Source: Escherichia coli O157:H7
GTDB lineage: Bacteria > Pseudomonadota > Gammaproteobacteria > Enterobacterales > Enterobacteriaceae
Length of the DNA: 64,000 nt
NCBI RefSeq assembly: GCF_013167455.1
Contig: NZ_CP038328.1
Direction: 5' to 3' (one strand)
A program made the position numbers. Positions 52,623 through 55,600 of this stretch are shown here, piece by piece; within the stretch, counting starts at the first letter, position 1; every line of letters starts with the position of its first letter.

Positions 52623-55600
52623 TAGGTTATGTGTTCTTTAAAAATAAGGAAATGTTTGAATTTAGTTGGTAGATTGTTGATGTGGAATAAATTTGTTTAA
52701 AAACAGATATGTATGCTTAGTGTGTTCCCCGCGCCAGCGGGGATAAACCGTCACCAAAACAGTGACAAAAACTGTCACCAAAGTGTTCCCCGCGCCAGCG
52801 GGGATAAACCGCTCATATTCGGATTGATCGTGTGTTTCGGTTTGTGTTCCCCGCGCCAGCGGGGATAAACCGGCCCAGGGATTTGTTCAATCCAGCGTGC
52901 CGCTGTGTTCCCCGCATCAGCGGGGATAAACCGGGCGCACTGGATGCGATGATGGATATCACTTAGAATTCCCCGCCCCTGCGGTAGAACACCCAGCTCC
53001 CATTTTCCAACCCATCAAGACGCCTTCGCCAACTCCTTCACCAGCGGTAGCATTATCCGCATAACGTCACGGCAGCGACGTTCTATTCTTCCAGGAAGTG
53101 CTTTATCAATATGTTGCTGATTATCCAGTCTTACGTCATGCCAGCTATTTCCCGCAGGGAATGCGGCTGTTTTTGCGCGTTGCTGATAACCATCTTTATT
53201 CCCAAGATTCCAGTTTGTCGCTTCCACCGAAAGTACAGCAATGCCCGCTTTGTCGAATATTTCTGCGTCATTACAACATCCAGTGCCTTTCGGATAATTT
53301 TTATTCAAACCCGGATTGGTCGTTGCGGCAATTCCATGACTACGCGCAATTGCCAGCGCCCTGTCGCGCGTTAATTTCCTTACTGCTTCAGGGGTTTTTA
53401 CACCGCTGTTGAAATACAATTTATCGCCAACAATTAAGTTATCGAGATTAATCACCAGCAGCGTATTTTTCTTTTCGGTGTCACTCATCCGCTTGAGTAA
53501 ATTCTCAGCGCCTAATTTCCCTTCCTCTTCTCCACTGGTCGCCACAAATCGAATACCATACTCGGTAGGCGTATTTTTCAGGCGTTCTGCCAGTTCCAGC
53601 ATGACACCTAAACCTGCGGCGTTATCATCCATTCCTTGTAACGTCAGCCCGCCGAGATTGGCATCTGCATCTGCGTCGCTCTGCGGGGCATAGGTATCCA
53701 GATGCGCCATAATAATGATCTGCTGCGGCGCTTTGCCTTCATGAGCGGCAATCACCGTACTTCCCGTCACGTTGTGCCAGTTTTTGCGGTTATCGCGGGC
53801 GGTATAAATATATCGGCTATTAAACGTACGAATATCACTGCGGTAACCCATTTGCTGAAACTGTTGCCGAATATAATCGGCAGATAACATTTCTGCGGGT
53901 GTTCCGGTCATTCGTCCCGGAAAGAAAGTGGCAATATGTCGCGCCTGTGTATTGGCAAAATCGCCAGGTTTAGGTGACGAGGCGTGTACGGGGAGAATAA
54001 AGCATACGCCGAGCGCCAGGGCAGCGGTACGGTGGCGCAATGCGGAAAACATAGTGAGTCCTTAAATACCATGCAAATTTTTTTACCGCCATAGTATGAA
54101 ACTGCCGCTGCGCTAAAACAATTTCAAATCTTCCTAAACGCCCGAAATCCGGTGCCTTAAGCACTTTTTGATATTAGCTTTGCCAAATCGTTATTCCGTT
54201 AAGGAACTACTCATTCTAATTGGTAATTTCATTCGTTCTCTTACGCTCCCTATAGTCGAAACATCTGATGGCAAGAAAATAGCGGTATTGCAAAGGAACG
54301 GTTATGGATCAAATACGACTTACTCACCTGCGGCAACTGGAGGCGGAAAGCATCCACATTATTCGCGAGGTGGCGGCAGAATTCTCAAATCCGGTGATGC
54401 TCTACTCTATCGGTAAAGATTCCAGCGTCATGCTGCATCTGGCGCGCAAGGCGTTTTATCCAGGTACGCTGCCTTTCCCGTTGCTGCATGTCGATACCGG
54501 CTGGAAATTCCGTGAGATGTATGAGTTCCGCGATCGTACGGCGAAAGCCTACGGCTGCGAGCTGCTGGTGCATCAAAACCCGGAAGGCGTGGCGATGGGG
54601 ATTAATCCATTCGTGCACGGCAGCGCGAAACATACCGATATTATGAAGACCGAAGGCCTGAAGCAGGCGCTGAATAAATACGGTTTTGATGCCGCCTTCG
54701 GTGGTGCGCGCCGCGACGAAGAGAAATCCCGTGCTAAAGAGCGTATCTACTCTTTCCGTGATCGCTTCCATCGCTGGGACCCGAAAAATCAGCGCCCGGA
54801 GCTGTGGCACAACTATAACGGGCAGATTAACAAAGGCGAAAGCATCCGCGTTTTCCCGCTCTCTAACTGGACCGAGCAGGATATCTGGCAATACATCTGG
54901 CTGGAAAATATCGACATTGTGCCGCTGTATCTCGCTGCGGAACGTCCGGTTCTGGAACGCGACGGTATGTTGATGATGATTGATGACAACCGTATCGACC
55001 TGCAACCGGGCGAAGTGATTAAAAAACGGATGGTGCGTTTCCGTACGCTGGGCTGCTGGCCGCTGACCGGTGCGGTGGAGTCAAATGCACAAACGCTGCC
55101 GGAGATCATCGAAGAGATGCTGGTTTCCACCACCAGTGAACGTCAGGGGCGCGTGATTGACCGCGACCAAGCTGGTTCTATGGAGCTGAAAAAACGTCAG
55201 GGGTATTTTTAAGATGAACACCGCACTTGCACAACAAATCGCCAATGAAGGCGGCGTCGAAGCCTGGATGATTGCGCAACAACATAAAAGCCTGCTGCGT
55301 TTTCTGACCTGTGGTAGCGTCGATGACGGCAAAAGTACCCTGATTGGTCGTCTGTTGCACGATACCCGCCAAATCTATGAAGATCAGCTCTCATCGCTGC
55401 ATAATGACAGTAAGCGTCACGGCACCCAGGGCGAAAAGCTGGATCTGGCTCTGCTGGTGGACGGCCTGCAAGCTGAGCGTGAACAGGGCATCACCATTGA
55501 CGTGGCCTACCGCTATTTCTCTACCGAGAAGCGTAAATTTATTATCGCCGACACTCCAGGGCACGAGCAGTACACCCGCAATATGGCGACTGGCGCATCG

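What the first reader, a model, noticed from the sequence alone, without database searches (positions are those of the whole stretch)
52751..52782. Leader-proximal spacer is low-complexity and internally self-complementary
Spacer 1 (tcaccaaaacagtgacaaaaactgtcaccaaa) has tcaccaaa at both ends and an internal inverted repeat gtgaca...tgtcac. This is atypical for protospacer-derived sequence and could reflect capture from a repetitive or structured element, or rearrangement.
Basis: seen in the sequence. Interest (0 to 1): 0.25.

Follow-up and report, generated by a model that had tools for sequence, protein, structure and literature searches.

The report
CRISPR spacer copied from phage origin
The odd-looking first spacer of the E. 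coli O157:H7 CRISPR array is an ordinary immune memory copied, next to the correct recognition motif, from the repeated initiator-binding sites in the replication origin of a lambda-like phage, which fully explains its repetitive, self-complementary look.

Summary
Spacer 1 (52751-52782) has TCACCAAA at both ends and a GTGACA/TGTCAC inverted repeat; only 0.03% of random window 32-mers show both features. It is not a rearrangement. The window is the E. coli O157:H7 type I-E CRISPR1 locus (intact cas3-cas2, leader, 4 spacers, iap).

Spacer 1 matches 32/32 (33/33 with the repeat's last G) a Rac-like lambdoid prophage at ttcA in E. coli STEC384/STEC379, and an identical metagenome contig. The match occurs twice, each time preceded by ATG. 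ATG (written CAT in the paper) is an experimentally defined acquisition motif of the O157-type I-E variant and the commonest PAM of its arrays (PMC3737337).

The protospacer lies in the replication origin inside the phage O gene: six 19-bp dyad-symmetric iterons (TGTCACCAAAACAGTGACA), an A-rich tract and a lambda-like palindrome. The spacer covers 17 nt of one iteron, the 5-nt linker and 10 nt of the next, which produces both the terminal direct repeat and the internal inverted repeat.

About 293 complete genomes (mostly O157:H7) carry the spacer, and the sampled ones have no second match. This is an ordinary acquired spacer of low novelty.

The parts
44067..46766 (+). cas3 (899-aa ORF), first gene of the type I-E cas operon
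   Evidence: ORF list. NCBIfam cas3_core 217 bits and cas3_HD 92 bits, both above cutoff. The K-12-type equivalog NF007248 scores below its cutoff.
46795..51415 (+). Cascade genes casA/cse1, casB/cse2, casC/cas7, casD/cas5 and casE/cas6e. ORFs are 46795-48426, 48423-48959, 48971-50026, 50037-50783 and 50627-51415; true starts may be internal to the mechanical ORFs.
   Evidence: ORFs. NCBIfam TIGR02547, TIGR02548, TIGR01869, TIGR01868 and TIGR01907 all score above cutoff.
51412..52625 (+). cas1e (51412-52335) and cas2e (52332-52625), the spacer-acquisition genes
   Evidence: TIGR03638 380 bits and TIGR01873 134 bits. RefSeq annotates cas2e under the match in O157:H7 genomes.
52626..52721 (+). 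AT-rich CRISPR leader between cas2 and the first repeat
   Evidence: Sequence. Identical in O157:H7 genomes and in strain NJS001. O157:H7 CRISPR2.1 is described as type-A repeats and leader with cas-EO genes in PMC3737337.
52722..52750 (+). Repeat 1, GTGTTCCCCGCGCCAGCGGGGATAAACCG. Its last G is the base contributed by the PAM.
52751..52782 (+). Spacer 1, the finding. It is a 32-nt copy of a lambdoid-phage ori segment and reads V-T-K-T-V-T-K-T-V-T-K in the O-gene frame.
   Evidence: Exact match at L127 256-287 and 373-404, equal to L128 20107-20138 and 20224-20255, each preceded by ATG. Translation.
52751..52767 (+). Part of spacer 1 derived from iteron n: 17 of the 19 nt of TGTCACCAAAACAGTGACA. 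The missing TG is the end of the ATG PAM.
   Evidence: Iteron map of the source ori.
52768..52772 (+). Part of spacer 1 derived from the 5-nt inter-iteron linker AAAAC. The near-exact protospacers in IMG/VR differ only at its last base.
52773..52782 (+). Part of spacer 1 derived from the first 10 nt of iteron n+1 (TGTCACCAAA). This creates the terminal direct repeat (period 24) and the 3' arm of the inverted repeat.
52783..52811 (+). Repeat 2
52812..52843 (+). Spacer 2. Its best protospacer is 31/33 in the major capsid protein E gene of Escherichia phages vB_EcoM-569R10, -720R5, -705R4 and -783R5, also preceded by ATG.
52844..52872 (+). Repeat 3
52873..52904 (+). Spacer 3. No protospacer was found in the phage or plasmid collections.
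52905..52933 (+). Repeat 4, a variant with two substitutions in the hairpin loop (GCCA to ATCA)
52934..52965 (+). Spacer 4, the trailer-end spacer. It matched only E. coli chromosomal records.
52966..52994 (+). Degenerate terminal repeat, GAATTCCCCGCCCCTGCGGTAGAACACCC
53015..54052 (-). iap (aminopeptidase), the chromosomal boundary of the array
   Evidence: NF007568 707 bits. RefSeq annotation.

Best explanation
Spacer 1 is a normal type I-E spacer. In an ancestor of the O157:H7 lineage, the Cas1-Cas2 complex of the O157-type variant (cas-EO) excised a 33-bp prespacer beginning at the G of an ATG motif. The source was the replication origin of a Rac-like lambdoid temperate phage, and the prespacer was inserted at the leader end of CRISPR1.

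The origin lies inside the phage O (initiator) gene. It is built from tandem 19-bp dyad-symmetric iterons (TGTCACCAAAACAGTGACA) separated by short linkers, followed by an A-rich unwinding tract. The 32-nt spacer spans 17 nt of one iteron, the 5-nt linker and 10 nt of the next iteron. It therefore inherits the iteron's dyad (GTGACA/TGTCAC) and the iteron-to-iteron direct repeat (TCACCAAA, period 24). The A-richness reflects the Val-Thr-Lys-Thr codons that the iterons encode in O.

Shown: the exact match, the PAM, the ori anatomy, the intact cas operon and the lineage-wide fixation of the spacer.

Inferred: when the H-NS-repressed cas operon is expressed, the crRNA guides Cascade to two perfect ATG-flanked targets in that ori, and Cas3 degrades the phage genome. 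The spacer hairpin has no functional role.
For: (1) The window is 100% identical to the O157:H7 cas2e-CRISPR-iap region, and 300 complete genomes are at least 99% identical over 461 bp.

(2) All eight cas ORFs are intact and hit type I-E models.

(3) The pattern TG + spacer (34 nt, which excludes array copies) occurs twice in metagenome contig ULSO01042213.1. Both copies are preceded by ATG.

(4) That contig is 100% identical over 2,991 nt to a prophage in E. coli STEC384, and the same ori is present in STEC379. The prophage sits at ttcA and carries int, xis, exoVIII, gam, cI/cro-like genes, O, P, terminase and capsid genes.

(5) The host ORF has Pfam Phage_rep_O (E = 6e-23) and the next ORF has Phage_lambda_P (E = 7e-52).

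(6) Six iterons were mapped at L128 20105-20264. They are followed by cacacaaaagacaaaagaaag and tcgtcagagaattct...cctctgac. This parallels lambda's four annotated iterons, A-rich tract and palindrome. [quoted passage not shown]

(7) In 109 of 109 IMG/VR loci holding the same iteron pair with full context, the O N-terminal signature LPRQKVNxAKNEL lies upstream and a 76% A+T tract lies downstream.

(8) ATG (written CAT) is a spacer-acquisition motif of O157:H7 Cas1-Cas2, seen in 11 of 45 insertions. It is also the most frequent PAM of leader-A arrays, seen in 34 of 55 protospacers (PMC3737337). Spacer 2's best protospacer also has ATG.

(9) The 33-mer has BLAST E = 6e-8 even against 28 Gb of E. 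coli DNA.
Against: No experiment here shows interference or acquisition.

The exact source was found in only two related pork isolates and one metagenome contig. It was not found in IMG/VR, GenBank phages, PLSDB plasmids or GTDB representative genomes, so the historical donor phage is inferred from a modern relative.

E. coli I-E systems are generally H-NS-silenced and their arrays evolve slowly (PMC10910852; title and abstract of PMC5394155). Present-day immunity from this spacer is therefore unproven.

A -6.8 kcal/mol hairpin in the guide could in principle reduce Cascade loading or target binding. This was not tested.
Confidence: 0.93

Rival explanations
1. The spacer is the product of a rearrangement or slippage inside the array (for example recombination between spacers, or duplication) rather than a faithful copy of foreign DNA.
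For: The terminal 8-nt direct repeat and the internal palindrome are rare by chance, at 0.03% of random 32-mers.
Against: The full 32-nt sequence plus the preceding G exists contiguously, twice, in a phage O gene with a correct PAM. The repeats on both sides are perfect and the spacer has the canonical 32-nt length. The same periodic structure is seen in more than 100 independent phage origins.
Confidence: 0.01
2. The donor was not an infecting phage but a resident element. It could have been a prophage once integrated in the O157:H7/O55:H7 ancestor, with self-targeting then helping to cure it. Alternatively it could have been a phage-plasmid using the same ori type.
For: E. coli spacers preferentially match prophages, and a 'left-over of warfare with previously resident prophages' scenario has been proposed (PMC10910852). 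The exact target is known only as an integrated prophage. A related ori (30/33) sits on a 42.9-kb circular Citrobacter 'plasmid', pCIAM-3, with cI/cII/O/helicase genes. No sampled carrier of the spacer holds any near-match elsewhere, as expected if spacer and target are incompatible.
Against: Nothing distinguishes this from acquisition during infection. The absence of the target in a clonal lineage is a single evolutionary observation. The plasmid match is only 30/33 with a 4-nt linker.
Confidence: 0.25
3. The spacer's structure is functional in its own right. Either the crRNA hairpin, or Cascade binding to the iterons, acts as a regulator or replication blocker (CRISPRi-like occlusion of O binding), rather than serving only as a guide for Cas3 cleavage.
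For: The spacer RNA folds into a stable hairpin (-6.8 kcal/mol, z = -2.8) without disturbing the repeat hairpins. The targets coincide with initiator-binding sites, and every iterons' first 8 nt match the seed.
Against: The structure is fully explained as a passive inheritance from the iterons. cas3 is intact. No data indicate Cas3-independent activity, and the other spacers of the array are unremarkable.
Confidence: 0.04

Closest known systems
E. coli type I-E CRISPR1 (CRISPR2.1) array of the O157:H7 / cas-EO, leader-A variant (Diez-Villasenor et al. 2013, PMC3737337)
   Same: The locus is identical: the window is 100% identical to O157:H7 genomes across cas2e, leader, array and iap. It has 29-nt repeats, 32-nt spacers, and the repeat's last G derived from the PAM. 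Spacers 1 and 2 have AWG (written CWT) PAMs, here ATG.
   Different: Nothing differs structurally. The only addition here is the identification of spacer 1's protospacer, which I did not find in the searchable literature.
Bacteriophage lambda ori (four iterons inside gene O, then an AT-rich tract and a palindrome)
   Same: The position in mid-O is the same. Both have 18-19-bp dyad-symmetric iterons with a CAAAAC core, an A-rich tract (lambda cacaaaagacactattacaaaagaaaaaag; this ori cacacaaaagacaaaagaaag) and a tcgtcagagaattct...cctctgac element. The O C-terminal domain is lambda-like and a P gene lies downstream.
   Different: The iteron arms are TGTCAC/GTGACA instead of TCCCTC/GAGGGA. The O N-terminal recognition region also differs: LPRQKVNAAKNEL against lambda's LPVKRCNEAKLEL. 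There are six iterons with an internal 48-nt duplication rather than four.
Stx-phage (933W, P27) six-iteron origins (PMC7466680)
   Same: The number of iterons is expanded to six by duplication of the promoter-distal units, still inside O.
   Different: Stx phages use lambda-type iteron sequences. Here the specificity group is the mEp043/Sf101/SEN22 type.
mEp043 / Sf101 / SEN22 / Proteus vB_BPM-V3 O-gene origins
   Same: They share the same iteron consensus and the same O N-terminal domain signature.
   Different: They match spacer 1 at only 28-31 of 33. They have a 4-nt linker or an AAAAG linker, mostly GTG, TTG or CTG at the PAM position, and a different O C-terminus paired with a DnaB-type helicase instead of P.

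Membership tests
Ordinary acquired type I-E spacer | Sits between canonical repeats in an array adjoining a leader and a cas operon | tested here: met
   R1 and R2 are perfect 29-mers. The leader is 52626-52721 and cas3 to cas2 are intact.
Ordinary acquired type I-E spacer | Canonical length (32 nt, or 33 with the PAM-derived G) | tested here: met
   32 nt with 61-nt repeat spacing.
Ordinary acquired type I-E spacer | Contiguous match to a mobile genetic element (protospacer) | tested here: met
   32/32 match, twice, in the O gene of a lambdoid prophage (L128) and in contig L127.
Ordinary acquired type I-E spacer | Protospacer flanked by the PAM used by this variant (AAG or ATG, written CTT or CAT), with the -1 G matching the repeat end | tested here: met
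   ATG precedes both copies. The CWT motif is defined for O157:H7 Cas1-Cas2 and leader-A arrays (PMC3737337).
Ordinary acquired type I-E spacer | crRNA is processed and confers interference against the target | not testable with these tools
   Only in silico evidence is available: the repeat hairpins are preserved in the R-S1-R fold.
Lambda-type replication origin (source of the protospacer) | Located inside a gene whose N-terminal domain is Phage_rep_O | tested here: met
   Pfam PF04492, E = 6e-23. RefSeq annotates 'replication protein'.
Lambda-type replication origin (source of the protospacer) | Four or more tandem ~19-bp imperfect inverted-repeat iterons | tested here: met
   Six units at L128 20105-20264. 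Lambda's annotated iterons for comparison. Definition from PMC7466680.
Lambda-type replication origin (source of the protospacer) | AT-rich unwinding tract immediately after the iterons | tested here: met
   cacacaaaagacaaaagaaagtaaatactaaaag. Mean 76% A+T in 109 related loci.
Lambda-type replication origin (source of the protospacer) | Partner loader gene (P, or a helicase) directly downstream | tested here: met
   Phage_lambda_P, E = 7e-52. 'Replication protein P' annotation.
Lambda-type replication origin (source of the protospacer) | O protein binds the iterons and the region drives replication | not testable with these tools
   Inferred from co-variation only. All TGTCAC-iteron phages share LPRQKVNxAKNEL, whereas lambda differs in both iteron and motif.
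cas-EO / leader-A variant of E. coli I-E | cas genes, leader and repeats of the O157:H7 type | tested here: met
   100% identity to O157:H7 genomes. The K-12-trained equivalog models for Cas3 and CasA score below cutoff while the generic I-E models pass. The variant is defined after O157:H7 in PMC3737337.

The most novel reading that the evidence does not exclude
Origin iterons may be privileged CRISPR targets. Because the site is repeated, one spacer gives two perfect cleavage sites and a seed match at further iterons within a single phage genome. Because the sequence must keep binding the initiator O, escape mutations are constrained to the linkers. The same guide also near-matches (31/32) origins of a whole iteron-specificity group found in phages of Escherichia, Proteus, Citrobacter, Pantoea and Arsenophonus. 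Retention of this spacer at the leader end across the O157:H7 lineage, and the absence of this ori type from those genomes, could then reflect selection rather than chance.
Probability: 0.1. Interest if true: 0.4.

Novelty: already known. Interest (0 to 1): 0.15.

Why it matters
It mostly closes the question. The strange-looking spacer is not a sign of array damage, a non-canonical acquisition route or a new element.

There are three small positive results:

- It gives a concrete target for the leader-proximal spacer of the O157:H7 CRISPR1 array, namely the replication origin of a Rac-like lambdoid phage still circulating in pork-associated E. coli. Many E. coli spacers have no known target.
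- It provides a natural example, with a second from spacer 2, of the ATG PAM preference reported for the O157-type I-E variant.
- It illustrates a general rule for readers of raw arrays. Internal periodicity or palindromes in a spacer point to capture from cis-acting repeats such as iterons or operators, and these can be used to guess the target.

Tried and rejected
- Exact-spacer scans of IMG/VR and of GTDB representative genomes found nothing. GenBank phages and PLSDB plasmids gave at best 31/33 and 30/33.
- A chimeric 110-nt query (pCIAM-3 context with the spacer inserted) against E. coli genomes returned only ~89% matches to related prophage origins. It did not even report the array copies, probably because of low-complexity masking, so it was not used for counting.
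- The repeat-spacer-repeat query meant to count array carriers was uninformative, because repeat-only hits swamp the coverage and identity bins. Carrier counts were taken instead.
- The '2 places' reported for STEC384 and STEC379 raised the possibility of self-targeting (spacer and target in one genome). A local BLAST showed that the internal 48-nt ori duplication alone produces the second place. I did not inspect those strains' own CRISPR arrays directly.
- Rfam gave no family hit for the array at gathering threshold.
- Literature searches for the spacer sequence (both strands, and core 20-mers) returned nothing. The search combining CRISPR, spacer, 'origin of replication', iterons and protospacer returned only an unrelated plant-virus review.
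- The rearrangement reading and a functional-hairpin reading were considered and rejected or down-weighted (see rival explanations).
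Full report
**1. The observation**

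The region is a short CRISPR array:

| Element | Coordinates | Note |
|---|---|---|
| R1 | 52722-52750 | perfect 29-nt repeat |
| S1 | 52751-52782 | the finding |
| R2 | 52783-52811 | perfect repeat |
| S2 | 52812-52843 | |
| R3 | 52844-52872 | perfect repeat |
| S3 | 52873-52904 | |
| R4 | 52905-52933 | two loop substitutions |
| S4 | 52934-52965 | |
| R5 | 52966-52994 | degenerate terminal repeat |

S1 reads TCACCAAAACAGTGACAAAAACTGTCACCAAA. TCACCAAA occurs at both ends with a period of 24. GTGACA (positions 12-17) and TGTCAC (positions 23-28) are inverted repeats. If the last G of R1 is included, the pattern becomes GTCAC-N7-GTGAC-N7-GTCAC.

In 20,000 random 32-mers from the window, 0.7% had a direct repeat this long and 6.4% had an inverted repeat this long. 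Only 0.03% had both, and none of 20,000 shuffles of the spacer did. "Low-complexity" overstates it: the composition is A16 C9 G3 T4.

**2. The locus**

Upstream lie eight intact ORFs that match type I-E Cas3, CasA-E, Cas1e and Cas2e. A 96-nt AT-rich leader follows, and iap lies downstream on the minus strand.

The 461 bp spanning the cas2 end, leader, array and iap end are 100% identical to many E. coli O157:H7 chromosomes and at least 99% identical in 300 complete genomes. A pig isolate, NJS001, has a base-for-base identical leader and array.

This is the well-known O157:H7 CRISPR1 (called CRISPR2.1 in PMC3737337) locus of the "cas-EO / leader-A" variant. The K-12-trained equivalog models for Cas3 and CasA score below their cutoffs while the generic I-E models pass, which fits that variant. 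S1 is leader-proximal and so the last spacer acquired, but it is fixed across the lineage.

**3. Where spacer 1 comes from**

BLAST of G + spacer against GenBank phages and PLSDB plasmids put every good hit inside "replication protein O" genes of lambdoid elements:

| Element | Match |
|---|---|
| Proteus phage vB_BPM-V3 | 31/33 |
| Citrobacter pCIAM-3 | 30/33 |
| mEp043, Sf101, SEN22 | 28/33 |

Reading those sites showed the same layout each time. About four tandem ~19-bp dyad-symmetric units (TGTCACCAAAAC[A/G]GTGACA) are followed by an A-rich tract (cacacaaaagaaactattacaaaagaaaag).

The closest were 31/32 identical and differed only at the last linker base. In all 109 loci with full context, the O N-terminal signature LPRQKVNxAKNEL lies upstream and a 76% A+T tract lies downstream.

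Exact-spacer scans of IMG/VR and of GTDB representative genomes were negative. One-mismatch copies occur in Arsenophonus triatominarum and Pantoea latae genomes.

I then scanned metagenomes with TG + spacer, which excludes array copies because arrays have CG at that position. This found contig ULSO01042213.1 with two exact copies 117 bp apart. Both are preceded by ATG.

The contig is 100% identical over 2,991 nt to a prophage in E. coli STEC384, and the same ori is in STEC379; both strains are from pork in Beijing. That prophage is integrated next to ttcA and is a complete Rac-like lambdoid phage. It carries int, xis, exoVIII, gam, cI/cro-like regulators, O, P, ninG, holin, terminase and capsid genes. 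The ORF holding the protospacers has Pfam Phage_rep_O and the next ORF has Phage_lambda_P.

**4. Why the spacer looks odd**

The source ori has six iterons at L128 20105-20264. Pairs 1-2 and 5-6 are a 48-nt duplication. The iterons are followed by cacacaaaagacaaaagaaag and then tcgtcagagaattct...cctctgac.

Lambda's record annotates four iterons in the same position of O. Its sequence shows the same CAAAAC core, the same A-rich tract and the same tcgtcagagaattct...cctctgac element. The literature describes the lambdoid ori as iterons plus an AT-rich tract in mid-O. Each iteron is a 19-bp imperfect inverted repeat, and some phages have six (PMC7466680).

S1 equals iteron 1 minus its first two bases (17 nt), the AAAAC linker, and the first 10 nt of iteron 2. 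The dyad inside an iteron gives the inverted repeat. The iteron-to-iteron periodicity gives the terminal direct repeat. In the O reading frame, G + spacer encodes VTKTVTKTVTK, which explains the A-rich codon-like rhythm.

The O alignment shows that all TGTCAC-iteron phages share an N-terminal motif that differs from lambda's. The STEC384 O also has a lambda-like C-terminus matched to P. This is the expected modular arrangement, with the N-terminal domain matched to the iterons and the C-terminal domain matched to the loader.

**5. PAM**

The two bases before every protospacer of this family are TG, because they are the start of the iteron. The PAM is therefore NTG, and N is set by the linker. 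In the exact source it is ATG at both copies.

For the O157:H7 variant, Diez-Villasenor et al. measured acquisition next to CTT (26 of 45 insertions) and CAT (11 of 45). These are AAG and ATG on the spacer strand. They also found CAT to be the most frequent PAM of leader-A arrays, in 34 of 55 protospacers (PMC3737337). The G of ATG matches the repeat's terminal G, giving 33/33. Spacer 2's best protospacer, 31/33 in a phage major capsid gene, is also preceded by ATG.

**6. Mechanism and status**

Shown here:
- faithful capture of the protospacer;
- a correct PAM;
- an intact cas operon;
- two perfect targets plus one seed-perfect site with 6 mismatches (CTG PAM) in the source ori;
- a spacer hairpin of -6.8 kcal/mol that leaves the repeat hairpins intact in the R-S1-R fold.

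Inferred: Cascade and Cas3 interfere with phages carrying this ori when cas expression is de-repressed. E. coli I-E systems are generally considered repressed, and O157:H7 array diversity is reported to come mostly from spacer loss rather than gain (PMC10910852; PMC5394155).

Carriers number about 293 complete genomes: 295-296 records hold the exact 33-mer, and two of those are the prophage hosts. All 37 sampled array carriers, mostly O157:H7, show a single place even at E ≤ 10. There is therefore no self-target down to roughly 85% identity. Another 178 genomes carry related origins at 80-95% identity to the spacer.

**7. Rivals**

- Rearrangement is refuted by the contiguous external match.
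- A resident-prophage or phage-plasmid donor, rather than an infecting phage, cannot be distinguished from the main reading and changes little.
- A functional role for the hairpin, or occlusion of the ori by Cascade, is unsupported.

**8. Novelty and score**

This is the canonical O157:H7 array, and the spacer is an ordinary prophage-derived one. Naming its protospacer (lambdoid ori iterons) appears not to be in the searchable literature, but it is an annotation-level result.

The only mildly interesting open idea is that iterons make good CRISPR targets because they are multi-copy, constrained against escape and shared across a specificity group. I rate that at about 10% probability. Overall interest is low (0.15).

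Noticed in passing
window 52812-52843 (spacer 2); L130 61-93: Spacer 2 matches 31/33 the major capsid protein E gene of Escherichia phages vB_EcoM-569R10, -720R5, -705R4 and -783R5. The protospacer is preceded by ATG, a second natural example of the ATG PAM preference of this I-E variant.
   Followed up: partly
window 52873-52904 (spacer 3): No credible protospacer in GenBank phages or PLSDB plasmids at E ≤ 1; only weak chance-level hits. Its target remains unknown.
   Followed up: partly
window 52905-52933 (repeat 4) and 52966-52994 (terminal repeat): Repeat 4 carries two substitutions confined to the hairpin loop (GCCA to ATCA), so the stem is preserved. The terminal repeat is heavily degenerate. 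Both are identical in strain NJS001 and in O157:H7 genomes.
   Followed up: no
window 44067-48426 (cas3, casA): The K-12-based NCBIfam equivalog models score far below their cutoffs: Cas3 NF007248 427 against 569 bits, CasA NF007247 103 against 576 bits. The generic type I-E models pass. This reflects the divergent cas-EO variant of O157:H7.
   Followed up: partly
L128 20105-20264 (STEC384 prophage ori): The ori has six iterons because of a 48-nt internal duplication (97.9% identical) that repeats the iteron 1-2 pair as 5-6. The two middle iterons are divergent (TGTCACCGATTTGGTGACA and TGTCCCCAATTTGGTGACA). This is reminiscent of the six-iteron origins of Stx phages.
   Followed up: partly
L128 19791-21430 compared with L001, L002, L003: The O gene is mosaic. 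The N-terminal domain and iterons are of the mEp043/Sf101 type, but the C-terminal domain is lambda/phi80-like and pairs with a lambda-P homologue. The mEp043-type phages instead have a different C-terminus followed by a DnaB-type helicase.
   Followed up: partly
L124-L126 (Arsenophonus triatominarum, Pantoea latae); L001 (Proteus phage): The same iteron specificity group, including 31/32 matches to the O157 spacer, occurs in prophages of distant Enterobacterales, among them an insect symbiont. This ori/O N-terminal module is therefore widely exchanged.
   Followed up: no
PLSDB records NZ_OL790696.1, NZ_CP141089.1, NZ_CP134663.1: Records of 4.8-4.9 Mb in the plasmid collection are evidently E. 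coli chromosomes. They matched spacer 4 (the trailer-end spacer), presumably within their own CRISPR arrays rather than at plasmid protospacers.
   Followed up: no
L128 17441-18595 and 22580-24112; L127 2181-2732: The source prophage carries a type I restriction endonuclease gene next to its immunity region and a class I SAM-dependent DNA methyltransferase downstream of P. The identical metagenome contig L127 has a 183-aa ORF at 2181-2732, downstream of P, with a weak HNH hit (below the Pfam cutoff). These may be accessory defence or anti-defence cargo.
   Followed up: no
window 52500-53100: Rfam 15 returned no family at gathering threshold for this CRISPR array, so the repeat is not covered, or not reached, by a CRISPR-DR model in this release.
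   Followed up: no
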